NCBI GenBank assembly: GCA_000004985.1
Contig: GG738999.1
DNA: 12,926 nucleotides
Source: Naegleria gruberi
Taxonomy: Eukaryota
Direction: 5' to 3' (one strand)
The first letter of the stretch is position 1; each line of letters starts with the position of its first letter. Positions 1-12,926 of this stretch are shown here, one piece after another. Both the position numbers and the translations under genes were made by a program. The notes below the pieces were generated by a model that saw only the letters and a program-made list of their open reading frames with translations, was not told the DNA's origin and did not search any database.

Positions 1-1775
1 ATTTCCGAACAAACAGAGCTATTATATGAGGCAATTGAATAACAAGTAAAAAAATCTGTACAGTATTGACCAGACCATCCAGCATTACAGGAACAATTAT
101 CATAAGAAGTGCAGTTACCATATCCATTACACACATTTGGTTCGTTAAAGTGTATTTCGTTACAAGTTGGGAATTGACACTGATCACCAAAACCTGAACT
201 ACAAAGGCAACTGCCATCTTCTTGACATTGACCATGACCATTACAAACAGTCTCACTATTACTAGCAATTCCATAACAATAATTTGGATCTGTTAAATAA
301 GCAACGAATCCATTTGATGCTGTTGATACAGAAACATTCTTACCATCAAATTTTGGATTTAAGCCAAGGGTTCCAAAAATTGATATGAATTGATTATTAT
401 TATTCTTAACTCCATAAGAATAATCATCTTTTGAGCCTCCTTCTTTAATAGCCCAAACAGCATCTAAAGTAGTTCTTTTGAAAGCAGCAATCACAATATC
501 CCGTCCTCCAGTACTTGTCAACTTGGTGGAACCAATTTGAATTGTACCTGCAAAGTGACCAGAAACGATTATTTCTTGATCATTTTTGTTGGTATCTATT
601 CCTGTAAATACTACATCACCATCAATAACTAGATTTTTAGCTTCAGTAGGGGTGTTAGTACCATTCTTCAAGTAGAACATTAAAAATGATTTTCTTGATT
701 CAGTTGGTATGACCACAGAACCAACTATGTAGATTTCAACTTTTCCTTGAGCCGTAATTATTTTCATATCGTATACATCAACATCGTTTTGATAATTTGC
801 AATTGTAGTGGTGTGTTTTACTTTGAAAGGTTGGATATTGGTTGAGTTAATTTCATAATAACTAAAGAAGGGAGTTTGATGGATGGCCGATATTTGATCA
901 CCACCAAATGTAATTTCTCCATGAAAACTACCACATACCCAAAAGGAAGAAGCAGATGACTTGATAACCTTTTTTATGACTGAAGTTCCAGTCCCTCCTT
1001 GTTGTAGAACTTGCTTTTTTCCCAATGTCATTGAATCAAGAGAGACAGTGACAAGAGCAGCAAAAGGAGTCAAGTCACACTGAGTTGGAAGAGTCAACAC
1101 GGACTTATCTTCAAAGGTTAATATGTCAGGATTCTCCTGTGAGTTAGAGCATTCAGCGTAACCAACTACAATTAATGTATTTTCTATTTTCTGAATGTTG
1201 TCAGCTAAACTTGTTATACTACTCCATGCAACGAACTTGTCTGCGGAATGTACAACATAAACACCAATGGCTAGTTGTGCTGGATCTACGCATAATCTCA
1301 GAATGAATGATCCTGGTGGAAATGTTATCTTCTGTTCAAACTGAGTGATCTCTACCGAGCCTGCATTTCTAACAGTAACAAAAGGCCCGGTTACTGATGC
1401 AGTCGGTGAGAATATTTCTAATTGTTTTGATGAATAGATACATTCCTTTGCAATAATTTCATTTGGGGGACCATACCATGCATACCATACCAAACACACA
1501 AAGAAGGACGGATTCAACCCATCCAATTTGGTCTTTTCATTAAAGAAGATTGTTCCTGATTGAAAACCATTGAAAATACCCCAGTAACCGCTGTAACCAA
1601 AATAGTTTGGATAAGAATCAAACAAAGTCCTGAAATTATCTTCAGTTCCAACAGTAGATACAACTCCTATGACTGGCTTACTCGCCTCAATGCTGTGCTG
1701 AGTACATAAGCAATACCACAATACAATAATCATCAAGGATGCAATTGTTGCTGTCCTTCCCGGTACTATTGCCAT
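1..1775 (-). CDS. Partial CDS with a complete 5' end (ATG at 1775) and a 3' end beyond the left window edge. Secreted protein: signal peptide, then SBBP-like beta-propeller repeats, then C-terminal tenascin-type EGF-like cysteine repeats.
   Basis: Manual reverse-complement translation from ATG (complement of 1773-1775) down to position 1 gives 591 sense codons with no TAA, TAG or TGA. The nearest in-frame upstream stop is at 1869-1871 (tca on the + strand), so 1775 is the first ATG. A run of nine A sits directly 5' of the ATG on the coding strand. The N-terminus MAIVPGRTATIASLMIIVLWYCLCTQHSIEA has a basic n-region, a hydrophobic core and an AxA-like cleavage site. The central part has repeated V.G.F.G..FG and GGRDIVIAAFKR..LDAVWAIKEGGSKDDYSYGV motifs that resemble SBBP/beta-propeller repeats, and a KNNNNQF asparagine run. 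The last ~90 residues hold two full modules (CNGHGQCQEDGSCLCSSGFGDQC, CNGYGNCTSYDNCSCNAGWSGQYC) and the start of a third, matching the tenascin-type EGF spacing C-x-G-x-G-x-C-x4-C-x-C-x2-G-[FWY]-x-G-x2-C. GC is visibly higher than in the flanking repeat DNA. The ORF is probably missing from the supplied track because it has no stop inside the window. Confidence 0.85.
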   Translation of the reverse strand, partial: MAIVPGRTATIASLMIIVLWYCLCTQHSIEASKPVIGVVSTVGTEDNFRTLFDSYPNYFGYSGYWGIFNGFQSGTIFFNEKTKLDGLNPSFFVCLVWYAWYGPPNEIIAKECIYSSKQLEIFSPTASVTGPFVTVRNAGSVEITQFEQKITFPPGSFILRLCVDPAQLAIGVYVVHSADKFVAWSSITSLADNIQKIENTLIVVGYAECSNSQENPDILTFEDKSVLTLPTQCDLTPFAALVTVSLDSMTLGKKQVLQQGGTGTSVIKKVIKSSASSFWVCGSFHGEITFGGDQISAIHQTPFFSYYEINSTNIQPFKVKHTTTIANYQNDVDVYDMKIITAQGKVEIYIVGSVVIPTESRKSFLMFYLKNGTNTPTEAKNLVIDGDVVFTGIDTNKNDQEIIVSGHFAGTIQIGSTKLTSTGGRDIVIAAFKRTTLDAVWAIKEGGSKDDYSYGVKNNNNQFISIFGTLGLNPKFDGKNVSVSTASNGFVAYLTDPNYCYGIASNSETVCNGHGQCQEDGSCLCSSGFGDQCQFPTCNEIHFNEPNVCNGYGNCTSYDNCSCNAGWSGQYCTDFFTCYSIASYNSSVCSE

Positions 1776-1960
1776 TTTTTTTTTCTTCACAAAAGCTTCT
1801 TTGGGAAGTGATGTTGTTGTGAAAACTCTGAATGTGTGTGGGCACCTTAGTAAGAGGTGAAATTTAGTTCATACAATTTTTACACAGTATACCCAAATAA
1901 AGGGCGGCTTAACAGTGTGCTCGTTAAATTTGTAGTATTAATAAGGTCTATATTACCGAA
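1776..1960 (-). promoter_or_regulatory. 5' leader and proximal promoter of the minus-strand gene. It has an oligo(A) tract abutting the ATG and AT-rich TATA-like stretches (for example the reverse complement of 1930-1945, taatataga).
   Basis: Its position is immediately upstream of the first ATG. The coding strand reads gaagaaaaaaaaaATGG. There is no ATG between the in-frame stop at 1869-1871 and 1775. The TATA assignment is by eye only. Confidence 0.3.
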
Positions 1961-2503
1961 TCGTGCGGATGTATTTGCAAAGAAAGCAATGTATGTCGTT
2001 GTGTTTGACGACATATACTTGGGGTTTGGTTATCGTTTCGTACTCATTGGATCTTTATTATTACTGAAATACATAATCAAAGATATACATCATTAAATAG
2101 GTAACAATCTCAGCTATCCAGTGGGCTATAGATTGTGTATAGTTTCTTATCTAATTATTGAGATAATCAGCAATTCCTCACTCAATATATTGCGATTTTA
2201 CTATTCCTAGGGAAAGGTAAAAGAATGATCAGAAATTGATCAATAAAAAATATATGTCATACTAGAGATGATTTGCTATCGATTGGTGTTTCAACTTTTG
2301 GATTTTACTAAGTAATTATTGAATTATCACCGATTAAATATTTAATTATTCTTGTTGGAAATCCTTGCTGGTAATTAAAGAGAGTTGATTCATTCTGTCT
2401 TGGTTGTATGGAGGTGAGACTTGCGGACGCTCTTAAATTGTCGGTTGGAAAAGTAACATACAAAAAAAATGTTGTGATGTCTCCTCTCTCTTCCTCATTC
2501 AAT

Positions 2504-2569
2504 CATCTCATCATCATCTCATCATCATATCATCATCATATCATCAGCATATCATCAGCATATCATCAG
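2504..2569. repeat. 11-bp tandem minisatellite, six units: catctcatcat x2, catatcatcat x1, catatcatcag x3.
   Basis: Direct reading gives perfect 11-nt phasing from 2504 to 2569, with two point variants separating three unit types. Confidence 0.9.
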
Positions 2570-2723
2570 GAGTTGTTTCATAATAATTTTAAAAATATAT
2601 ATTGATTGGAATTATTTGGAAGATGATGTTTCGGAATTGGAATAATATTTATTTGGAAGTTATTATAATGGTGGAGGTGTGGTGCCTTTGGCACTCACTT
2701 CCACCAAGTTGCAAAATTAATTG

Positions 2724-2773
2724 NNNNNNNNNNNNNNNNNNNNNNNNNNNNNNNNNNNNNNNNNNNNNNNNNN
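2724..2773. other. Assembly gap of 50 N.
   Basis: Run of n characters. Confidence 1.
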
Positions 2774-3097
2774 ACTGGGGAGAAAATATTTTACAAACGT
2801 AACCAAGTGCAATTACATTTCCCATTATGTGGGTTTGGTTCTACGAACCTCGGATACCTCTTACTCCAATCTCTTATTGATTTAAGATTTTGAAATTGTT
2901 TATTGTTGATACGAATCAGAAGCTTCTTATTGTGACAACACTTGATAGAAGAATGGGAAAGTGGTTGCATTAATTCAACATATTGAAAGTGAACAAGGTT
3001 CTCATCTCAAGATTTGGAACTCTTCTTCATGAAGAGGAGGTTATTGGGTGGTGACTAGAGAGAAACATTTCCTTGTAGCTTTTCTACTAGTAAATGA

Positions 3098-3260
3098 TTA
3101 ATTGACCAAGATGTTGACCTATAATATGGAAACACAATAAAATTCAATAATACTGATAAATACAGTAGTGAATATGAATGGTAATCATAAATCACTGAAA
3201 AAATCATGATTGGATCCATTTTGAGACTTTTGGAAGTCAACTTGGATGGCAATAGGGGAG
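3098..3260 (+). repeat. Dispersed repeat, copy 1 (family also at 12174-12340).
   Basis: taattgaccaagatgttgacctataatatggaaacac...ggatccattttgagacttttggaagtcaacttggatgg aligns collinearly with 12174-12340 (taattgaccaagatattgagccatactatggaaacac...ggatccacattcatactgtgggaagtcaacttgtgtg). Identity by eye is roughly 70%, with indels. Confidence 0.6.
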
Positions 3261-3885
3261 CTTTTGATGTGGTTAACACTTTTAAAGGGATCTGAATATT
3301 TTATTAGATAATATATGTCATCGTTTTACTTTATCACTAAATGTTGAATATCATGATGTTATGACCTATATTTCCAATTTGCGAAATGTTGCAATGTCAA
3401 TGTTTAATTGAAATATTGCCATCATACCAATAATTGATTATATATTATAAAACTGATATTATACACTATAATTGATATATATATGAATATATAATTGAAA
3501 GATTTGGTTTTAGACATTTATTAATGACGTGGGTAGTTCACTAAGGTAGTAACTTTGTCATGTGACATCTATCTAAGATGATATTGAAATCATTCCAAAA
3601 TTGATTCGATGAGAGTATTTGATGATTATAACTTGGTAGTATTGAATTGGTGTTGATTATTACCATTCATGACATGTAAGAATGTTACCTTTTTGTCAAT
3701 TAGGACAGTAGCTTGACAGATAGTCCAATTATATAGATATTGATTTGTATCACTCAAATACGTTATGAACATCAATTATAAGAGTATTTGTATGATATTC
3801 TATCTTGTTGAACATCTTGATATTGACTTGTCATATATCATGAGTAGTTAGTGACATGGTTAAATGGCATGAATACTGAATGATG

Positions 3886-3935
3886 NNNNNNNNNNNNNNN
3901 NNNNNNNNNNNNNNNNNNNNNNNNNNNNNNNNNNN
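3886..3935. other. Assembly gap of 50 N (a single n also at 4012).
   Basis: Run of n characters. The gap abuts the start of a repeat copy. Confidence 1.
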
Positions 3936-4486
3936 GAATTCTATATCATTATATATCATCTACATCATGTTGGTAAAGTTTCAATAGGTGGTCCTTTTTC
4001 AAGATTTCATCNCTTTTCATCAAAGTAGACCATGTGTGATTGAGGGAAGAAATCTCTAAATATGAAAGTTAAAATAAATTTGATATTCGATGTATACTCA
4101 TCAAATGGAACATTTTCATATCAGGATTTAATATGTTTTGATGAGAAACTCAAAAGTTATTGTTGACCTATTGTACCTCACAACTTCCCTTTTTACTTGA
4201 TACTTTTATACCTACAGACTTGAACTTTTGAAATTTCATGTGAACCTAATGATGAATACTGTTAATGATGATATAAACTATATAATCTCATTAAAGGATT
4301 TTGAAATTATCATTCTTCCTATGGTTTCATTTATGAAATTTTAATCTGACATTATTTACAAAGTTAATATTTTATAAATTGAAAAACTAAATATACCACG
4401 TTATTCTACTCATCATTTCCAATCGAATGATATAAAATTTAATGATATTTGAATAAGTTTATAATTTTGGGCTAGGATTAGAGTTG
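3936..4486 (+). repeat. Satellite-family block S2, copy 1 (paralog at 6566-7010). Its left end is hidden by the gap.
   Basis: gaattctatatca...ggtaaagtttcaataggtggtccttt.tcaagatttc...gaccatgtgtg.ttgagggaagaaatctctaaatatg...ctcattaaaggattttgaaattatcattcttc.tatggtttcatt...tctgacattatttacaaagttaatattttataaattgaaaaactaaatata...tttgggctagg is collinear with 6566-7010 at about 85-90% identity. The one exception is an internal ~85-bp segment that is inverted between the copies. Confidence 0.8.
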
Positions 4487-4794
4487 TTTTGATTTGTTAC
4501 TTCGGTGGCACCATGGTCTTTATGATCTAATATAGAGTCTTTAAGTGAATCTTGGGCTTTTGGAAAGGTTTTTCAGTAAAGTTTTAAAAAAAGTATATAC
4601 TTTCTATCTAGATATCGAGATTTGGTGTATTTGTTGTTTGCGTTGTTATTTGGAAAGTGGTAAAGATTTCGATATTCTTGGATTCTTAGATTCGGTTTCC
4701 ATTCGAAATTGATTGAAGATTCGCTAAGATTCGAATCTTTTTCCGCAAATAAGAATCTTTACCGGTATGAGATTGAATATTCAATTAGCATAGG

Positions 4795-4830
4795 TTTTTA
4801 GGTTTAGATTCTTAGGTTTTCGGACAAATA
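4795..4830 (+). repeat. Weak, degenerate telomere-like tract (ggtttttaggtttagattcttaggtttt).
   Basis: TTTAGG/GGTTT-like units, G-rich on the + strand. It is homologous to part of the stronger tract at 6991-7104, and a ~300-bp insertion of gattc-rich DNA (about 4500-4790) lies in between. Confidence 0.3.
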
Positions 4831-4964
4831 AATTTAACACTACAAGAAAGACAAGTAAGAAAGCTGCTCTATTTTGGCGTATAATTTTTAAAATTACTTT
4901 TCAAAGTAAATCGATTTTATCTACGTTAAAATATTGTGTTCAATTATTATATGGATTGGTTGCA

Positions 4965-5852
4965 ACTTTAAGATATTGATCTATGAATATGAAACTGTTC
5001 CAGATTGTTATCCACATAAAGAGGAGTGTATTCATATTTTACACTAATATGATATTTTGCAAAATGAATGGGATGGAGTGTGATCTTTGTGATGAAAGCT
5101 GACTTTTTGGAAGAATGATATTATTATCATACTGAATATAATTCTAACAGACTGTAAATGATACCATATAATTAATAAAGTGATTTAATATATATGGTAA
5201 AGTTATATAATGATTGAACCTACTTTCATTGAGATAGAGAGTTCACTAGGATATAAATACTGTTGACATTGAACATGAACCGATTGGTTGAATGATAGTA
5301 TCATGAATTGTTTCTAAACTTGTTTATATATACTTAAATGATGTCTAGATTGTGTGATATCAATTTTAGATTTATTGCACGTAAATTGAGTGATTTGGAG
5401 TATAATCTATGATATCATGTCAAAAGTCCATAATAAAGTGATAGAGTTGACAACAGGACATTTACTTAACCGATATTCATGAAATTGATACCATATACTA
5501 ATTAGAGTGTCTACATATCATGATTTTAATTTCAGTGAAAATGGAGTTGTTTCTATCTTTCAGATTTCCATCCATTCCATTGAATTACCACCATGTACTA
5601 TCTACCGGATGTATTTCTTGAAATGAAAATATATAATTTGAAGAAAGTCCACTTTATTTGAGATGTTAAACATGATAGTATCATTTATTTTGAGATTGGT
5701 AACTTTCCCTATAGTGTAATCCTTAATTGTATTAATTGACTAAAAGAGGTCAAGGAGAGATTTCAAAACATAAAATAAATGATATTTTCGAGATGTACTA
5801 TCGATTTCCAATCGATTGATATGTATTTTGTTGATTGAGGATGTGGTTCTCT
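4965..5852 (+). repeat. Higher-order unit S1, copy 1 (about three ~300-bp monomers; paralog at 10640-11526).
   Basis: Collinear alignment with 10640-11526 over ~890 bp at roughly 85% identity, for example gaaactgttccagattgtt / gaaactttctcagattgtt, agtgtctacata.catgat, gaagaaagtccactttatttgagatgt, gactaaaagaggtcaaggagagatttcaaaacataaaataaat, tccaatcgattgatatgtattttgttgattgaggatgt.gttctct. Internally it splits into ~300-bp subunits that each begin with a tt(t)ca(g/t)tga.a...gga(g/t)...ttc motif near 5227, 5533 and 5831. Confidence 0.8.
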
Positions 5853-6565
5853 ATATTCAAGATTTCCTCCTTATCCTCCCAAGTCAACCTTGATAAATCA
5901 CTCTTTACCTTACTGAATTATGGAATATTTACCAAAATGTCTAAAAACTGAATCATATACATTATTAGAGATATGGAACATGATTATATGATTTAATTTG
6001 AGATTGGTAACTTGGCTGATTCACTTGTTCATTTGAGGGAGAGTTTACCACCATTTAGATATTAGAGATATTTCCAATTAGAATGAATGATATTTTCGAT
6101 GACTACTCATCATTTGCAACATTTTCATATGTGTTTTATTGACTGGAGTGATGTTTTTGATATCTTGATTTTCACCTTTCAATCCTTAAAGTCAACCTTA
6201 AGATATCAACCTTTACCTTACTATATTGTCAAATTACATTTTAAAACTCTAAAATTGAATTCTATTACATTATTTGAGTTGTTAAACATGATGGAAGTGT
6301 TTCATAGAGAGGTCATTTTCCAGATTTTCATCCATGTCCATAGTTGACTAGATGGTATGAAAGGGATGAAATCTTGATTATGAAAGTTAAAATAAACTTG
6401 ATATTCAATCTCTACACATCTAATGGAGCATGTACATGTGTAATTTGCTGATTGAAGTGATGTTTTTGATTGACTTGATCTGACTTGTCTTTCCTTTCAG
6501 TCAACTTTGTAAAATCAACATTTACTTTCCTATGGTACCATTTCTGATTCTTATGATATGAAATT
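5853..6565 (+). repeat. Degenerate tandem monomers of the same ~300-bp satellite family, linking S1 copy 1 to S2 copy 2.
   Basis: Monomer-start motifs ttgattgaggatgtggttctct (5831), ttgactggagtgatgtttttgat (6129) and ttgctgattgaagtgatgtttttgat (6445) give spacings of 298 and 316 bp. Shared internal motifs include caagatttcc.cc, agtcaacctt, gaaattgaattctat, tttgag.tgttaaacatgat and gagattggtaactt. Confidence 0.55.
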
Positions 6566-7010
6566 GAATTCTATATCACTATAGATCATATAAATCATTT
6601 TGGTAAAGTTTCAATAGGTGGTCCTTTATCAAGATTTCCACCTTTTCATCATAGTTGACCATGTGTGGTTGAGGGAAGAAATCTCTAAATATGGATGTGA
6701 AAATAAACTTTCTCATCAAAGCATATTATATCCTGATATGAAAATGTTCCATTTGATGAGTAAACATCGAATATCAAATTTATTTTGACATTTATATTAA
6801 TGTTGTTAGGGAAGATATATACTATATAATCTCATTAAAGGATTTTGAAATTATCATTCTTCGTATGGTTTCATTTTATAGTTTTTAATCTGACATTATT
6901 TACAAAGTTAATATTTTATAAATTGAAAAACTAAATATAATACATTGTTCTACTCATCATTTACAATCGAATGATATAATATTCAATAATTTGGGCTAGG
7001 GTTTGAACTT
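6566..7010 (+). repeat. Satellite-family block S2, copy 2.
   Basis: See 3936-4486. A third partial match to the variable segment lies at 6378-6440. Confidence 0.8.
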
Positions 7011-7104
7011 TGAAACATTGGGTCTGGTATTTCAACTTTAGGTTCAAAGGTTTAGATTTTTAGGCTTGGGTTTTTAGGCTTTGGGTTGGTGGGGTTTGGG
7101 TGAG
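6991..7104 (+). repeat. Degenerate interstitial telomere-like tract (tagggttt, ggtttag, tttttaggc, gggtttttaggc, tttgggttggtggggtttgggtgag).
   Basis: Clustered G3T2-3 and TTTAGG-like units, G-rich on the + strand. The tract ends exactly where duplicated unit A begins. Confidence 0.5.
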
Positions 7105-8558
7105 TTTTATACACTTTCATACAATAGAGTGATATTGAAATGTACCCTTTGATATTTCTGGATGGGTAGCATGATTTAGTGATGATTCCGACAATAAAAA
7201 TCATGTATTGTTCATATAATTATCAAGATATTGTATAATTTATTAAATATAAAGTGGGTAATATTGAATATTCTTTGTAGGAGCGGAAGCACTTACTCTT
7301 GTCAGTTGGAGTCAGTACTGTATTAAGGTTCATTTAAGGAATCTTAAAAAAATACAATAACAACTCACCTACATCAATATCATCAAGTTATCATCTATAT
7401 TGAATATGGAGCAACAGCAAGAATGTATGGAGTTGATTCAACATGATTATTGGATTGGAGAGATGGCAAAAATATTGCTATCATTGTATTTGTCAAGTTG
7501 GAAGTACCCTCAGGATCATCAGCAAGGTTTCCTCTTCTCTTCTTGTTTGAGAGAGGTTTTTCATCAACAAGATGGTCATCTTCTTCATTGGAATGGTTGC
7601 TTTATTATTAAGGACTGAGAGTAGCGTTTTTAGATTTATTTTGATGAAATAAATCACAATTTATTACGCACAAAACATCAAGAACAACAAGAACAATGAT
7701 ACACCATCATCAATCAGTGAATTGGCCATCATCATTATTGTATAATTTCTTGGAATTTATTGGATTAATAGTAATTTATGGATTATTTGGTGGAATTACT
7801 ATCCTATTGAAGATGGAACATCAGCAACATCATCAAGATGATCTTCAATTTGGATAGTATTGTTTTCGGAGTGGTTTCACTCTTTTTGTGGGCTCTTTCA
7901 ACATACCATCATCCATCATCAGAATGGTCATCATCTTGTTGAGGGGAATATGTTCAACCTTGTTTTGGAAGGTAGAATATCGTACCACCACTCTACTCTC
8001 CTATTTTGATTAGATTGGTGGAGGTGCCACCACCTATTCATACTCTACATCAGTTGAATCTTCCCTCCATCATTTGGTGAGGGACCAACTTCTCCCTTCC
8101 ATATTGTTTAATAAATTATTGTTATTATCATATAATGATACAATTCTTGTTGTTGTTTGTTGTTAATTGTTGTTGTTAATAGTAACCGACAATTCCCCCT
8201 TAATAGTCATACAACCACTTGGTTATTCATATAAAGCATTTCTAGAAATTAAAAGCTATAGCACTGTTGGTTCAGTGGTTGTATGTTGGAGCGTCAATTA
8301 AGGGACTAGTGATCGATTCAAGGTGATTTTACTAACTTATTCATTTTTACCACCTTATTTTTTTAGATCTTCCTTAATACTTGACAATTTTAAAAGATAT
8401 TGATATCACATATACAATACTACATATAAACAACTCTATGTCAATTTCAATTGATTTAGTCAAGTATTCATTGAGAAAGAGTATGATCTGTGACATGATG
8501 TATTGACAACTTTACAAATATTGATTTAAACAATATGGTTATCTAGAAGAGTCTTATA
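7076..8558 (+). repeat. Duplicated ~1.5 kb unit, copy A (right end lost in the gap at 8559).
   Basis: About 99% identical to 9058-10553. The offset is 1982 bp at the left and grows to 1995 through a +3 (CTT) indel at 7537/9519, a +9 indel in the CAA run at 7690/9672, and a +1 indel at 7866/9848. Substitutions include gattagattgg vs gattggattgg and ggtgccaccacctattc vs ggtgtcaccacctgttc. Confidence 0.9.
8261..8332 (+). pseudogene. tRNA-like fragment (degenerate; possibly a tRNA-derived or SINE-like head) inside unit A.
   Basis: gcactgttggttcagtggttgtatg resembles the 5' acceptor and D-arm of eukaryotic tRNA-Gly(GCC), GCATTGGTGGTTCAGTGGTAGAAT. The downstream gatcgattcaagg resembles a T-loop (GGTTCGATTCC). 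No complementary 3' acceptor strand or convincing anticodon stem is present, so it is not an intact tRNA. Confidence 0.3.
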
Positions 8559-8608
8559 NNNNNNNNNNNNNNNNNNNNNNNNNNNNNNNNNNNNNNNNNN
8601 NNNNNNNN
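8559..8608. other. Assembly gap of 50 N.
   Basis: Run of n characters. It truncates copy A of the duplicated unit. Confidence 1.
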
Positions 8609-9054
8609 GACAGTCACATGGTTTTGGTGATTTTATCCACCTCTTTCTAGACAATTAAATTTAAAAATATCAAATGTTCTATTTATTATATAATAATTAT
8701 CTACATAATTAGTTTTGACTGAATCGGTCTAGAAAAAAAGTTATGTTTAAAAAACTATTTCAACTTTAATATTTATTTTCTCTTTCATTTTTAAGAATTT
8801 TTAATTTTTGATACCCTAGAAAAATTCTAATTTAAAAATACTATATTTCATATATTTTTTTAAAAAAATAAGGTTGGGTTTGGAAATACATACTCTTTGA
8901 TTATTCAATGAAAAACTACTTAACCATTCATTATGATATCTTACAAACTTGTTCTATACATTTAGGAGGAGCTACCCTGAAAGGATGACATCTTTAAATC
9001 AAATATTCATCGAACTATAAGGCACAGGTTTGAAAGACAAATATTGAAAGTTAG

Positions 9055-9087
9055 AAAAGGGTTTGGGTTGGTGGGGTTTGGGTGAGT
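9055..9087 (+). repeat. Telomere-like G-rich head of duplicated unit B (aaagggtttgggttggtggggtttgggtgag).
   Basis: GGGTTT, GGGTT and GGGGTTT units, G-rich on the + strand. The same sequence heads unit A. Confidence 0.55.
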
Positions 9088-10553
9088 TTTATACACTTTC
9101 ATACAATAGAGTGATATTGAAATGTACCCTTTGATATTTCTGGATGGGTAGCATGATTTAGTGATGATTCCGACAATAAAAATCATGTATTGTTCATATA
9201 ATTATCAAGATATTGTATAATTTATTAAATATAAAGTGGGTAATATTGAATATTCTTTGTAGGAGCGGAAGCACTTACTCTTGTCAGTTGGAGTCAGTAC
9301 TGTATTAAGGTTCATTTAAGGAATCTTAAAAAAATACAATAACAACTCACCTACATCAATATCATCAAGTTATCATCTATATTGAATATGGAGCAACAGC
9401 AAGAATGTATGGAGTTGATTCAACATGATTATTGGATTGGAGAGATGGCAAAAATATTGCTATCATTGTATTTGTCAAGTTGGAAGTACCCTCAGGATCA
9501 TCAGCAAGGTTTCCTCTTCTTCTCTTCTTGTTTGAGAGAGGTTTTTCATCAACAAGATGGTCATCTTCTTCATTGGAATGGTTGCTTTATTATTAAGGAC
9601 TGAGAGTAGCGTTTTTAGATTTATTTTGATGAAATAAATCACAATTTATTACGCACAAAACATCAAGAACAACAAGAACAACAACAATGCTGATACACCA
9701 TCATCAATCAGTGAATTGGCCATCATCATTATTGTATAATTTCTTGGAATTTATTGGATTAATAGTAATTTATGGATTATTTGGTGGAATTACTATCCTA
9801 TTGAAGATGGAACATCAGCAACATCATCAAGATGATCTTCAATTTGGATAGTATTGTTTTCAGGAGTGGTTTCACTCTTTTTGTGGGCTCTTTCAACATA
9901 CCATCATCCATCATCAGAATGGTCATCATCTTGTTGAGGGGAATATGTTCAACCTTGTTTTGGAAGGTAGAATATCGTACCACCACTCTACTCTCCTATT
10001 TTGATTGGATTGGTGGAGGTGTCACCACCTGTTCATACTCTACATCAGTTGAATCTTCCCTCCATCATTTGGTGAGGGACCAACTTCTCCCTTCCATATT
10101 GTTTAATAAATTATTGTTATTATCATATAATGATACAATTCTTGTTGTTGTTTGTTGTTAATTGTTGTTGTTAATAGTAACCGACAATTCCCCCTTAATA
10201 GTCATACAACCACTTGGTTATTCATATAAAGCATTTCTAGAAATTAAAAGCTATAGCACTGTTGGTTCAGTGGTTGTATGTTGGAGCGTCAATTAAGGGA
10301 CTAGTGATCGATTCAAGGTGATTTTACTAACTTATTCATTTTTACCACCTTATTTTTTTAGATCTTCCTTAATACTTGACAATTTTAAAAGATATTGATA
10401 TCACATATACAATACTACATATAAACAACTCTATGTCAATTTCAATTGATTTAGTCAAGTATTCATTGAGAAAGAGTATGATCTGTGACATGATGTATTG
10501 ACAACTTTACAAATATTGATTTAAACAATATGGTTATCTAGAAGAGTCTTATT
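9058..10553 (+). repeat. Duplicated ~1.5 kb unit, copy B.
   Basis: See copy A. Downstream of 10553 copy B runs into DNA unrelated to the sequence that follows A's gap (8609-9058), so the pair is not a simple head-to-tail tandem. Confidence 0.9.
10256..10327 (+). pseudogene. tRNA-like fragment, copy in unit B.
   Basis: Identical to 8261-8332 at an offset of 1995. Confidence 0.3.
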
Positions 10554-10639
10554 AATTTGTAATAAATATACTATATTTCAATTTTCAATTGTTGACTTGA
10601 TGTACTTAATTGACTTGTCTATTCTAAGGTTACTTAGTT

Positions 10640-11526
10640 GACTTGAAGATACTGAGCCATGAATTTGAAACTTTCTCAGATTGTTCTCCTCATCAAGAGG
10701 AGTGTATTCGTATTTGATACTAGTATGATATTTTGTAAACTGACTGAGATGGAGTGTAATCTCTTTTTTGAAATGTGATATTTTGAAAGATTGTTATTAT
10801 TATCATATTGAATTCAATTCTAAAACTATGAAATTGATACCAGATGTATAATAGTGTGACTAAACGTATTGGGTAAAGTTACAGAATGAATGGAATAACT
10901 TTCACTGAGATGGAGTGTTCACTAGGATATATATAATGTTGATATTGAACATTTACTGATTAATTTTATGAAAATAGTTTGAAATGTTTCTTAACTATTG
11001 TAGATGTATTTAATTGATATATAGACTATGTGGTATCAATTCTAGACTTGTTATATGTAAAATGAGTGATTTGGAGTATAATCTATGATATCATGTCAAA
11101 TATCTATAGTAAATTGATAGAGTTGACACCTCGACATCTACTGAACCAATATTTATGAAATTGATACCACATACTAATTAGAGTGTCTACATACCATGAT
11201 ATCAATTTCAGTGAAATTGGAGTTGTTTCTGGACCCTTCAGATTTCCATTCTCCTGACAAATCAGCATGTACTATCTACTGGATGTATTTCTTGAAATGA
11301 AAACATATAATTTGAAGAAAGTCCACTTTATTTGAGATGTAGGACACGATATTATCATTTATTATGAGATTGGTAACTTTTCCTATAGTGTCATCCTTAA
11401 TTGTCTTAATTGACTAAAAGAGGTCAAGGAGAGATTTCAAAACATAAAATAAATTATATTTTCGAGATTTACTATTGATTTCCAATCGATTGATATGTAT
11501 TTTGTTGATTGAGGATGTTGTTCTCT
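10640..11526 (+). repeat. Higher-order unit S1, copy 2.
   Basis: See 4965-5852. After ttgattgaggatgttgttctct the homology with copy 1 stops abruptly, and a G-rich telomere-like tract follows. Confidence 0.8.
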
Positions 11527-11564
11527 GGGGTTGGGGGTTGGGGTTGGGTTTGGGTTTGGGTATG
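11527..11564 (+). repeat. Interstitial telomere-like tract: ggggtt gggggtt ggggtt gggttt gggttt gggtatgg.
   Basis: Five to six consecutive G3-5T2-3 units are read directly from the sequence. The tract sits exactly at the breakpoint where S1 copy 2 diverges from S1 copy 1 (5852/11526). Confidence 0.7.
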
Positions 11565-12173
11565 GCGAAAACCTATTCTCATAAAATGAACCACTAATAT
11601 TGGCTATCCAGTTCTTATATATGTATTACTATATAAAATAATCTATCTATTCTGTAATACAGGTGAAAAAACTCCCCGTAGTTATTGAGATAATCAAAAA
11701 TGGTCAACTCAAAAATTCCTAGTATATCTATTATCTCTGCGACGAGAACGTTCCGGGTTATGATTCACTCAAATATCAATCTATATGAGTATTGGAAGAA
11801 ATGATAGAAAATACTAATTTTTTTAATTCGCCGTTCCCGAGATAATTGAGTCCTAAAGTGACCCCATGGGTTGAACCAACCTTGGGTCTGACAAAGTTGA
11901 AAATTTCAAAGTTGGGCCAGAATGAAACTTTTGATATATTGTAGATATATTTATGAATAGATGATATTATGAATTAATCTAGTTGAATCGGTGTATTTAA
12001 TAAATTACAACATGTCTTAAAATAAACTTTTCAACATTTATTGTACTATTATATGAATGTTATTAGAATCATCACCAATCTCATATATATGATGTATAAT
12101 GATGATATCTACCTTATAGAATTGTTGGAAATATAATATATGATATCCTTAGTATACTGTACTCATTCTACCT

Positions 12174-12340
12174 TAATTGACCAAGATATTGAGCCATACT
12201 ATGGAAACACTATACCAATTTATTAAACTTGTTAATATTGTAGTAAATATCAATTATAATCATATATAATTGAAATAATCATTATTGGATCCACATTCAT
12301 ACTGTGGGAAGTCAACTTGTGTGAAATTGACAATACTGGT
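12174..12340 (+). repeat. Dispersed repeat, copy 2 (see 3098-3260).
   Basis: Collinear similarity to 3098-3260. Confidence 0.6.
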
Positions 12341-12464
12341 AATTGAAGGATGAATATCTTACATGACTTAATTCCACTCATTCATACATGTCTAACTATC
12401 ATGGTTTATAATATCTAATTGAAATAATTGAAATTAATCATGTACATAAGGATATAATCAATTA

Positions 12465-12926
12465 GGGTGAATCCTTCCAATCCTGCTGTGGGAATGTAAT
12501 GGAATACTGAAGTCAATGGAAACATCACCAATTCATATGAAATTGATACAGAATACATAATAATATGTTAGAAATCGATTGGTGTTGAAAGAATTCAAAT
12601 CTGTTCAGTAGTTGTTGAGATCTGTATAAACCTACGGTACTATGGGACGAATGTAGGGCTGAGATGACCATATATGAAAGTATCGCTTCACTCAATAAAT
12701 TATATATCAAAATGTTGATGACGATGAGTACAGTTGATTGATATAGTTTTTGGTGACTGGAAGTGTCTAGAAGTATCACTATGTTGTCAATTGACCATTC
12801 CTTAATGAGTTGCCTTGGAACTTTTCCAATCATTGTGAAATTGATACATAATATATTATTTGATATTTGCAATGTATTGGAGTTGAAATAATTCAAATCC
12901 ACTCAGTAGAAATGGAGATATCATCA
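12465..12926 (+). repeat. Tandem array of ~300-350 bp satellite-like monomers (one full unit plus a partial second, truncated by the window end).
   Basis: ccttccaatc...catatgaaattgatacagaatacataataatatgttagaaatcgattggtgttgaaagaattcaaatctgttcagtagttgttgagatc (12473-12625) recurs as cttttccaatcattgtgaaattgatacataatatattatttgatatttgcaatgtattggagttgaaataattcaaatccactcagtagaaatggagatatc (12821-12922). The atgaaattgatac(c)a core also occurs at 5473, 10829 and 11157 inside S1 monomers. Confidence 0.6.

What the first reader, a model, noticed from the sequence alone, without database searches (positions are those of the whole stretch)
1..1775. Long minus-strand ORF absent from the ORF track: a secreted SBBP-like/tenascin-EGF protein bordering a satellite block
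The supplied track has no ORF in 1-1775. Reading the minus strand from ATG 1775 gives 591 codons with no stop, running off the window edge. Composition shifts sharply at ~1776-2100 from coding-like DNA to ~30% GC repeat DNA. The product has the layout of a surface or secreted adhesion-type protein: a signal peptide, a low-cysteine beta-propeller-like region (V.G.F.G..FG, GGRD.V.AAF...W....GGS.DDYSYGV), an N4 run, then tandem tenascin-type EGF modules. Cysteine-repeat secreted proteins next to subtelomeric or satellite DNA are often members of rapidly evolving families.
Basis: seen in the sequence. Interest (0 to 1): 0.6.

Follow-up and report, generated by a model that had tools for sequence, protein, structure and literature searches.

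The report
Truncated Naegleria surface-protein gene (propeller + EGF)
The open reading frame is real: it is the first 591 codons of an already-deposited Naegleria gruberi gene for a likely cell-surface glycoprotein (signal peptide, bacterial-type SBBP-like beta-propeller, EGF repeats), cut off by the end of a small repeat-rich scaffold, so the finding is sound but ordinary.

Summary
The minus strand from ATG 1775 is open for 591 codons to the window edge; shuffled sequence gives a mean of 83 codons and a maximum of 187. It was missing from the ORF track only because edge-open ORFs are not listed. The window is a complete 12,926-bp Naegleria gruberi scaffold, and the ORF is already in NCBI as 'predicted protein, partial' (587 aa, 100% identical).

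A complete paralogue, NAEGRDRAFT_48114 (1854 aa, 63% identical), continues with many more EGF-like modules, a PKD/REJ region, one transmembrane helix and a short tail. This gene therefore probably encodes a type I surface receptor or adhesin. That function is inferred, not shown.

The neighbouring DNA is gap-ridden and rich in dispersed and low-copy tandem repeats. It is not a true satellite, and nothing shows that it is subtelomeric.

The parts
1..1775 (-). 5' part (591 codons) of a protein-coding gene, open at the scaffold end. It equals NCBI 'predicted protein, partial [Naegleria gruberi]' (P0001, 587 aa).
1869..1871 (-). In-frame stop codon 31 codons upstream of the start. There is no ATG between it and ATG 1773-1775.
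   Evidence: The start is shared with paralogue P0002.
1683..1775 (-). aa 1-31: signal-peptide-like N-terminus (MAIVPGRTATIASLMIIVLWYCLCTQHSIEA|S). The first 45 residues are 83% identical to the paralogue.
   Evidence: Hydropathy scan: this is the only strongly hydrophobic segment of the protein, with small residues at -1 and +1 of the putative cleavage site. SignalP was not available.
1002..1682 (-). aa 32-258: N. gruberi-specific region of unresolved fold. It could be two or three degenerate propeller blades or a separate domain.
   Evidence: Only P0002 and P0003 match it among 1.84e9 representatives. hhalign against an SBBP blade profile is not significant. AF2 pLDDT is below 50 up to aa ~178.
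279..1001 (-). aa 259-499: SBBP-like beta-propeller blades. Clear blades lie at aa 260-305, 385-444 and 446-506, with a degenerate one between.
3..278 (-). aa 500-591: two complete six-cysteine EGF modules (C500-C533, C538-C572) and the start of a third (C578, C589), cut by the scaffold end.
   Evidence: Pfam EGF_Teneurin and EGF_2 above threshold. Cysteine positions. The first two modules are ~90% identical to the paralogue's.
1776..12926 (.). Non-coding, repeat-rich remainder of the scaffold at 30% GC, with N gaps at 2724-2773, 3886-3935, 4012 and 8559-8608. It is not part of the gene apart from its immediate 5' flank.
   Evidence: The ORFs there have no Pfam hits and there are no Rfam hits.

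Best explanation
Positions 1-1775 (minus strand) hold the 5' portion of a Naegleria gruberi gene for a secretory-pathway glycoprotein. It is truncated by the end of a small unplaced scaffold, not by biology.

Shown: the product starts with a signal-peptide-like segment. An N. gruberi-specific region follows (aa 32-258), then several blades of an SBBP-type beta-propeller (aa ~259-505), then tandem tenascin/teneurin-type EGF modules.

Inferred from the complete paralogue NAEGRDRAFT_48114, which has the same start, the same propeller and the same first EGFs: the missing 3' part probably encodes many more EGF modules, a PKD/REJ region, one transmembrane helix and a short cytoplasmic tail.

Inferred mechanism: a type I cell-surface receptor or adhesin in which a ligand-binding propeller is held away from the membrane on a rigid disulphide-bonded EGF stalk. 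The likely ligands are extracellular (substrate, prey bacteria or other cells). The variable blades would provide specificity.
For: - Real ORF. Identical to a deposited N. gruberi gene model on a 12,926-bp contig.
- EGF modules above the Pfam thresholds.
- The exhaustive phmmer search gave 2841 hits. Those outside Naegleria match aa ~391-501 many times per target. They are bacterial SBBP-repeat, T9SS-sorted surface proteins: 40 of the 49 that were aligned carry PF06739.
- A blade HMM built only from the bacterial proteins finds blades at aa 260-305, 385-444 and 446-506.
- Paralogue architecture: EGF_Teneurin in 10 matched stretches, REJ E 1.6e-24, a PKD-like domain, and a C-terminal hydrophobic helix with a short tail.
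- Six N-glycosylation sequons, and no other hydrophobic segment in the 591 aa.
Against: - Pfam's own SBBP model does not hit the protein.
- aa 32-258 shows no significant similarity to blades and was not modelled with confidence. A closed seven-blade propeller is therefore not demonstrated.
- The AF2 alignment was dominated by bacterial seven-blade proteins forced onto the query by MAFFT. The propeller geometry is therefore not fully independent evidence.
- The 3' part of the gene is absent, so the membrane anchor and REJ region are extrapolated from a paralogue that is only 63% identical. After EGF2 the two sequences stop being collinear.
- There are no expression or localisation data, and no signal-peptide predictor was run.
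Confidence: 0.7

Rival explanations
1. The copy on this scaffold is a truncated or decaying duplicate (pseudogene or gene fragment) embedded in repeat DNA, not a functional full-length receptor gene.
For: It sits on a 12.9-kb unplaced scaffold that is 60% intra-scaffold repeats with several gaps. A third family member, P0003, is annotated as only 240 aa and diverges abruptly where the others continue, so fragmentary copies may exist. After EGF2 the sequence loses collinearity with the paralogue.
Against: 591 codons remain open in AT-rich DNA where chance gives about 83. The start codon, signal peptide, cysteine framework and blade motifs are all intact. GC3 (0.26) differs from GC1 and GC2 (0.41, 0.42) as expected for coding sequence.
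Confidence: 0.15
2. It encodes a soluble secreted protein (propeller plus a few EGFs) with no membrane anchor. It would be an extracellular matrix or cyst-wall component, or a lectin-like factor.
For: No transmembrane segment occurs in the 591 aa available. The third EGF aligns with a much later EGF of the paralogue, which hints at a shorter EGF array. The bacterial SBBP relatives are secreted or surface cargo, not integral membrane proteins.
Against: The only full-length relative is a type I membrane protein. The region that would carry the anchor is simply missing here.
Confidence: 0.12
3. The propeller is catalytic, like CylK or streptogramin lyase Vgb, and the protein is an extracellular enzyme.
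For: The closest solved structure is the enzyme CylK. PMC8916777 notes that propellers can be catalytic.
Against: According to PMC8916777, CylK's active site lies at the interface with its N-terminal Ca-binding domain, and the profile match covers only CylK's propeller domain, residues 249-667. Identity to CylK is 14%. The EGF/REJ/TM context of the paralogue is typical of receptors and adhesins.
Confidence: 0.03

Closest known systems
Naegleria gruberi NAEGRDRAFT_48114 (XP_002678477.1, UniProt D2VB48; P0002), uncharacterised predicted protein, 1854 aa
   Same: It has the same start and signal peptide (83% identity over aa 1-45) and a collinear N-terminal domain (63% overall, ~90% over aa 391-555). 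It also has the same NNNN run and the same first two EGF modules.
   Different: The middle of the domain (aa 46-390) is only 40-60% identical. After EGF2 the sequences are no longer collinear. The paralogue's further EGFs, PKD/REJ region, TM helix and tail cannot be checked here because the scaffold ends.
Bacterial SBBP-repeat surface proteins (Pfam PF06739), often T9SS cargo of Bacteroidota such as Rufibacter, Pontibacter and Hymenobacter
   Same: The ~60-aa blade motif GGxxxDxGxxIxxDxxGNxYVTGxFxGTxxFGxxxLTSxGxxDxFVAKxxxxGxxxWA is recognisable in aa 260-305, 385-444 and 446-506. Identity to individual bacterial blades is 30-40%.
   Different: The Naegleria protein does not reach the Pfam SBBP threshold. 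Only 2-3 blades are clearly SBBP-like, and the N-terminal 227 aa are not. It is fused to eukaryote-type EGF modules instead of a Por_Secre_tail.
CylK C-terminal seven-bladed beta-propeller (PDB 7RON/7FH6; PMC8916777)
   Different: CylK is a cyanobacterial alkylating enzyme whose active site needs an N-terminal Ca-binding beta-roll domain, according to PMC8916777; the profile match covers only its propeller. Identity is 14%. No catalytic inference is justified.
Metazoan propeller + EGF surface proteins (teneurins, LDL-receptor family) and REJ/polycystin-1-like receptors
   Same: EGF modules of the teneurin/tenascin type. The general logic is a ligand-binding propeller combined with EGF spacers on a single-pass membrane protein. 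The paralogue has a REJ domain.
   Different: The propeller type differs: SBBP-like rather than NHL or YWTD. The domain order also differs, with the propeller N-terminal and the EGFs after it. No GPS domain is detected by Pfam in the paralogue. This is an analogy of architecture from general knowledge, not homology of the whole protein.

Membership tests
Pfam SBBP beta-propeller repeat (PF06739) | Scores above the Pfam gathering threshold for PF06739 | tested here: not met
   There is no SBBP hit even at E <= 10 for the 591-aa protein, and none for aa 32-505 (member 1).
Pfam SBBP beta-propeller repeat (PF06739) | Significant sequence similarity of its repeats to genuine SBBP proteins | tested here: met
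   phmmer E 1e-38 to 1e-14 to proteins of which 40 of 49 carry PF06739. A blade HMM built only from those proteins hits aa 385-444 at 1.8e-14, and hits 260-305 and 446-506 at about 1e-6. hhalign gives 97% for blade 6.
Pfam SBBP beta-propeller repeat (PF06739) | Closed multi-blade (seven-blade) propeller fold | tested here: inconclusive
Tenascin/teneurin-type EGF (Pfam EGF_2 PF07974, EGF_Teneurin PF23106) | Six-cysteine module scoring above the Pfam gathering threshold | tested here: met
   EGF_Teneurin 29.1 bits against a cutoff of 24.3. EGF_2 27.9 bits against 22.1. Cysteines at 500/511/517/523/525/533 and 538/549/555/561/563/572.
N. gruberi NAEGRDRAFT_48114-like family | Collinear similarity across the signal peptide, N-terminal domain and first EGFs | tested here: met
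   E 2e-163 and 63% identity over query positions 3-474 of the 474-residue query (aa 34-505 of the protein). Alignment A1.
N. gruberi NAEGRDRAFT_48114-like family | C-terminal PKD/REJ region, a single TM helix and a short tail | not testable with these tools
   The scaffold ends after 591 codons. The N. gruberi genome is not in the contig collections that could be queried.
Secreted or surface proteins (classical secretory pathway) | Cleavable N-terminal signal peptide | tested here: inconclusive
   A basic residue (R7) is followed by a hydrophobic core at aa 8-24 and then IEA|S, and it is conserved in the paralogue. No dedicated predictor (SignalP) was available, and a signal anchor is not excluded.
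Satellite DNA (for the flanking block 1776-12926) | Long head-to-tail array of many copies of one unit | tested here: not met
   TRF finds only microsatellites of 67 bp or less. Self-BLAST shows a ~309-bp unit in about 3.5 degenerate copies (66% identity), a 1.99-kb unit in 1.75 copies, and dispersed two-copy repeats.
Subtelomeric region | A terminal telomere-repeat array, or known placement near a chromosome end | not testable with these tools
   There is only an internal 39-bp GGGGTT/GGGTTT tract at 11527-11565. A 2013 survey states that no information was available on N. gruberi telomeres (PMC3622300). The scaffold is unplaced.

The most novel reading that the evidence does not exclude
The propeller of this small N. 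gruberi-specific family may derive from a bacterial SBBP surface protein. It could have been acquired from Bacteroidota-like prey and fused to eukaryotic EGF-REJ-TM modules, creating a lineage-specific receptor. The mosaic conservation between paralogues (blades 6-7 plus EGF1-2 ~90% identical, the preceding ~345 residues of the N-terminal domain, aa 46-390, 40-60%) could reflect diversifying selection on a ligand-binding face, or gene conversion of the stalk-proximal part. The family might then be a variable prey- or self-recognition system.
Probability: 0.2. Interest if true: 0.45.

Novelty: new member of a known kind. Interest (0 to 1): 0.2.

Why it matters
The significance is modest.

The work attaches a domain interpretation (an SBBP-like propeller) to an unannotated N. 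gruberi 'predicted protein' and its full-length paralogue, which Pfam leaves blank over the first ~500 residues.

It also shows a bacterial-type surface propeller joined to eukaryote-type EGF/REJ receptor modules in a free-living heterolobosean amoeba. That could bear on how Naegleria recognises substrates or prey, and on bacterial-to-eukaryote domain transfer.

For the genome scan, the practical lessons are simple. ORFs open at a window edge are missed by the ORF track. Small repeat-rich scaffolds carry truncated genes.

Tried and rejected
- Pfam and NCBIfam scans of the whole product found EGF families only. There was no propeller family and no NCBIfam hit.
- phmmer of the product against PDB sequences gave only EGF-region matches (tubular mastigoneme protein, Delta-like, reelin). 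Nothing matched the N-terminal domain.
- The word-indexed homologue search found only the self-hit. With a three-sequence profile it found only the self-hit plus P0003. It missed both P0002 and all the SBBP proteins that the exhaustive search found.
- Single-sequence AF2 was useless, at pLDDT 35.
- The afdb50 fold library was unavailable.
- The look-up of encoding contigs had no record for P0001, P0002 or P0003. No paralogue DNA could be obtained, so there was no dN/dS or gene-conversion test.
- hhalign of aa 32-258 against an SBBP blade profile was not significant. I therefore do not claim that those residues are blades.
- A GPS-like motif I thought I saw before the paralogue's TM helix (CECSSLGYNLVILEY) is not supported by Pfam even at E <= 10. 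I dropped it.
- The three longest ORFs of the repeat region were scanned against Pfam and gave nothing meaningful. The Rfam scan of the whole window gave nothing.
- Literature searches for Naegleria with SBBP, and for Naegleria telomere repeats, turned up nothing relevant to this protein or to the G-rich tract.

Full report
**1. Observation**

The reverse complement of window 1-1775 translates into 591 codons without a stop. In 1000 shuffles of the same bases, the longest open stretch in any frame averaged 83 codons (sd 17, maximum 187). The rest of the window (1776-12926) has nothing longer than 125 codons. ATG 1773-1775 is the first ATG after an in-frame stop 31 codons upstream.

The ORF lister omits ORFs that run off an end of the source. 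That is why the track was empty here. GC3 (0.26) is far below GC1 and GC2 (0.41, 0.42), as expected for coding sequence in an AT-rich genome.

**2. Provenance**

The product is 100% identical to an NCBI entry, 'predicted protein, partial [Naegleria gruberi]'. That entry is 587 aa and its only contig is 12,926 bp long, which is exactly the window length. The window is therefore a whole small scaffold of the N. gruberi draft genome. The gene model already exists and is truncated by the scaffold end, so it cannot be extended leftwards in this assembly. The contig look-up tool held no N. gruberi records.

**3. Anatomy of the product**

- *aa 1-31.* A basic residue (R7) is followed by the only strongly hydrophobic segment of the protein (aa 8-24) and then IEA|S. 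This has the layout of a signal peptide, and the first 45 residues are 83% identical to the paralogue's. No dedicated predictor was available.
- *aa 500-591.* There are two complete six-cysteine modules and the start of a third. Pfam calls EGF_Teneurin (E 1e-6, 29.1 bits, cutoff 24.3) and EGF_2 (E 3e-6, 27.9 bits, cutoff 22.1). The tenascin/teneurin-type EGF claim holds.
- *aa 32-505.* Pfam and NCBIfam call nothing here, even at E <= 10.

**4. Homology of the N-terminal domain**

An exhaustive phmmer search of aa 32-505 against 1.84 billion representatives gave 2841 hits at E <= 1e-3.

Only two hits cover the N-terminal half, and both are from N. gruberi:
- P0002 = NAEGRDRAFT_48114, 1854 aa, 63% identity, E 2e-163.
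- P0003 = NAEGRDRAFT_65614, 240 aa, 62% identity.

All the other listed hits match only aa ~391-501, and they match it 4-16 times per target. A few alignments reach back to aa ~259.

These targets are bacterial SBBP-repeat proteins:
- 40 of the 49 that I aligned carry Pfam SBBP, and 14 carry the T9SS sorting tail.
- Every named one is bacterial: Rufibacter, Pontibacter, Hymenobacter, Kapabacteria, Cloacimonadota, Synechococcus.

A 61-position blade HMM built only from the bacterial sequences has this consensus: [61 protein letters not shown]. In the Naegleria protein it finds blades at aa 260-305 (9e-7), 385-444 (1.8e-14) and 446-506 (3.6e-6). Those E-values are for a one-sequence search space.

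Profile-profile comparison (hhalign) confirms blade 6 (97%) and, more weakly, blade 7 (47%). It gives no significant signal for aa 32-258 (probability 0.5%).

In short, 'SBBP-like' is right for aa ~259-505. The first ~227 mature residues are unassigned and, so far, specific to N. gruberi.

**5. Fold**

Single-sequence AF2 failed, with pLDDT 35. A second run used a 51-row alignment: the query, P0003 and 49 bacterial SBBP proteins (A3). The model reached pTM 0.75, with aa 179-499 at pLDDT 70-96 and aa 32-178 below 50.

- Foldseek against the PDB returns propellers only, led by CylK (E 2.5e-7).
- The A3 profile hits the CylK propeller domain (residues 249-667) at E 7e-68.
- The CylK paper describes that domain as seven-bladed (PMC8916777).

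Caveat: the alignment was dominated by bacterial seven-blade proteins laid over the query by MAFFT. The model's geometry is therefore not independent of the hypothesis. Whether aa 32-258 closes a seven-blade ring remains open.

**6. What the missing part probably looks like**

The complete paralogue P0002 continues as follows:
- an EGF-rich region: EGF_Teneurin in 10 matched stretches, EGF_TEN and EGF_2, over aa ~505-1050, plus one more EGF near aa 1470;
- a PKD-like plus REJ region: REJ E 1.6e-24, aa 1122-1445;
- a hydrophobic helix, LMWLLLLLVLIPLTALLIAVIVWFVV;
- a tail of about 30 residues.

No Pfam GPS domain is detected. By inference, the window's gene encodes a similar type I surface glycoprotein. 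The inference is weakened because the two proteins stop being collinear after EGF2. The third EGF here aligns best with a much later EGF of P0002.

**7. Mechanism (inferred)**

The proposed mechanism is a ligand-binding propeller displayed on an EGF stalk at the cell surface, acting in adhesion or recognition. It rests on three things:
- the secretory signal;
- the six N-glycosylation sequons;
- the architecture of the paralogue, and the surface or secreted nature of the bacterial relatives.

Nothing here tests function directly.

Identity to the paralogue is mosaic: 83% for aa 1-45, 40-60% for aa 46-390, about 90% for aa 391-555, and 47% beyond aa 556. This could reflect gene conversion or differential selection. 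It could not be resolved without paralogue DNA.

**8. The neighbourhood**

GC declines gradually from 0.33-0.40 in the ORF to 0.23-0.33 further right. The scaffold contains 50-N gaps at 2724-2773, 3886-3935 and 8559-8608, and a single N at 4012.

Self-comparison shows:
- a 1.49-kb segment repeated at 98.9% identity with a 1.98-1.99-kb period (7076-8557 and 9058-10552). The first copy ends at a gap.
- a 0.89-kb repeat at 84% identity (4965-5852 and 10641-11526).
- a ~309-bp unit in about 3.5 degenerate copies (5651-6710, 66% identity), with relatives at 3936-4148 and 11325-11496.
- smaller repeat pairs.

About 60% of 1776-12926 is covered by such repeats. TRF finds only short microsatellites. 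This is repeat-rich, poorly assembled DNA. It is not a satellite array in the strict sense, and nothing places it near a telomere. The ORFs there have no family hits, and there are no Rfam matches.

**9. Verdict**

The finding is real but ordinary. It is a known, unannotated N. gruberi gene fragment. The genomic-context reading (satellite, subtelomeric, rapidly evolving) is unsupported.

The most interesting residue is the combination of a bacterial-type SBBP propeller with eukaryotic EGF/REJ/TM modules in a family seen only in N. gruberi, together with the mosaic paralogue conservation.

Noticed in passing
window 7076-8557 and 9058-10552: A near-identical (98.9%) 1.49-kb direct duplication with a 1982-1995-bp period, that is, about 1.75 copies of a 1.99-kb tandem unit. 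The first copy ends exactly at the 50-N gap 8559-8608, so an assembly artefact cannot be excluded. A 109-aa ORF (9832-10161) is open only in the second copy and has no family hits.
   Followed up: partly
window 2724-2773, 3886-3935, 4012, 8559-8608: Three 50-N scaffold gaps and one single N. Repeat boundaries abut two of the gaps (3936 and 8557). This is typical of a small unplaced scaffold stitched from repeat-ended contigs. The contig that carries the ORF spans only 1-2723.
   Followed up: yes
window 5651-6710 (relatives at 3936-4148, 6078-6130, 11325-11496; inverted pair 4059-4148 / 6709-6798): A degenerate tandem repeat of ~308-311 bp in about 3.5 copies (66% identity between neighbouring copies). 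Better-conserved fragments lie elsewhere on the scaffold, including a 90-nt inverted pair at 93% complementarity.
   Followed up: partly
window 4965-5852 and 10641-11526: A dispersed 0.89-kb direct repeat, 84% identical and 5.67 kb apart. No coding potential was detected.
   Followed up: no
window 11527-11565: A G-rich tract, (GGGGTT)n(GGGTTT)n, of about 39 bp that resembles a telomere repeat. It begins immediately after the end of the 0.89-kb repeat copy and lies 1.36 kb from the scaffold end. The GGGTTTGGGTTT pattern occurs 4 times against 0.03 expected. A 2013 survey states that no information was available on N. gruberi telomeres (PMC3622300), so its meaning is unknown.
   Followed up: partly
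window 2502-2568: An 11-bp microsatellite, (ATCATATCATC)x6, at 96% match. It lies about 730 bp upstream of the gene's start codon on the opposite strand.
   Followed up: no
window 8400-8900: An extremely AT-rich stretch (GC 17-23%) between the two copies of the 1.99-kb repeat.
   Followed up: no
window 1-1775 (-), protein aa 1-591 compared with P0002: Mosaic identity to the paralogue: 83% for aa 1-45, 40-60% for aa 46-390, about 90% for aa 391-555, and 47% beyond aa 556, where EGF3 aligns with a much later EGF of the paralogue. This suggests gene conversion or strongly uneven constraint. It could not be tested without paralogue DNA.
   Followed up: partly
P0003 (N. gruberi NAEGRDRAFT_65614, 240 aa): The third family member is annotated as only 240 aa. 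It lacks the signal peptide, and it diverges abruptly (…SSFWIGVRGIRGSYFQTII) where the other two continue into blade 4. It is probably a mis-modelled or truncated copy.
   Followed up: no
window 3-150 (-), protein aa 542-583: The EGF region gives a weak sequence hit (E 1.7e-4) to a solved 'tubular mastigoneme protein' (PDB 9ufe). This is most likely generic EGF similarity.
   Followed up: no
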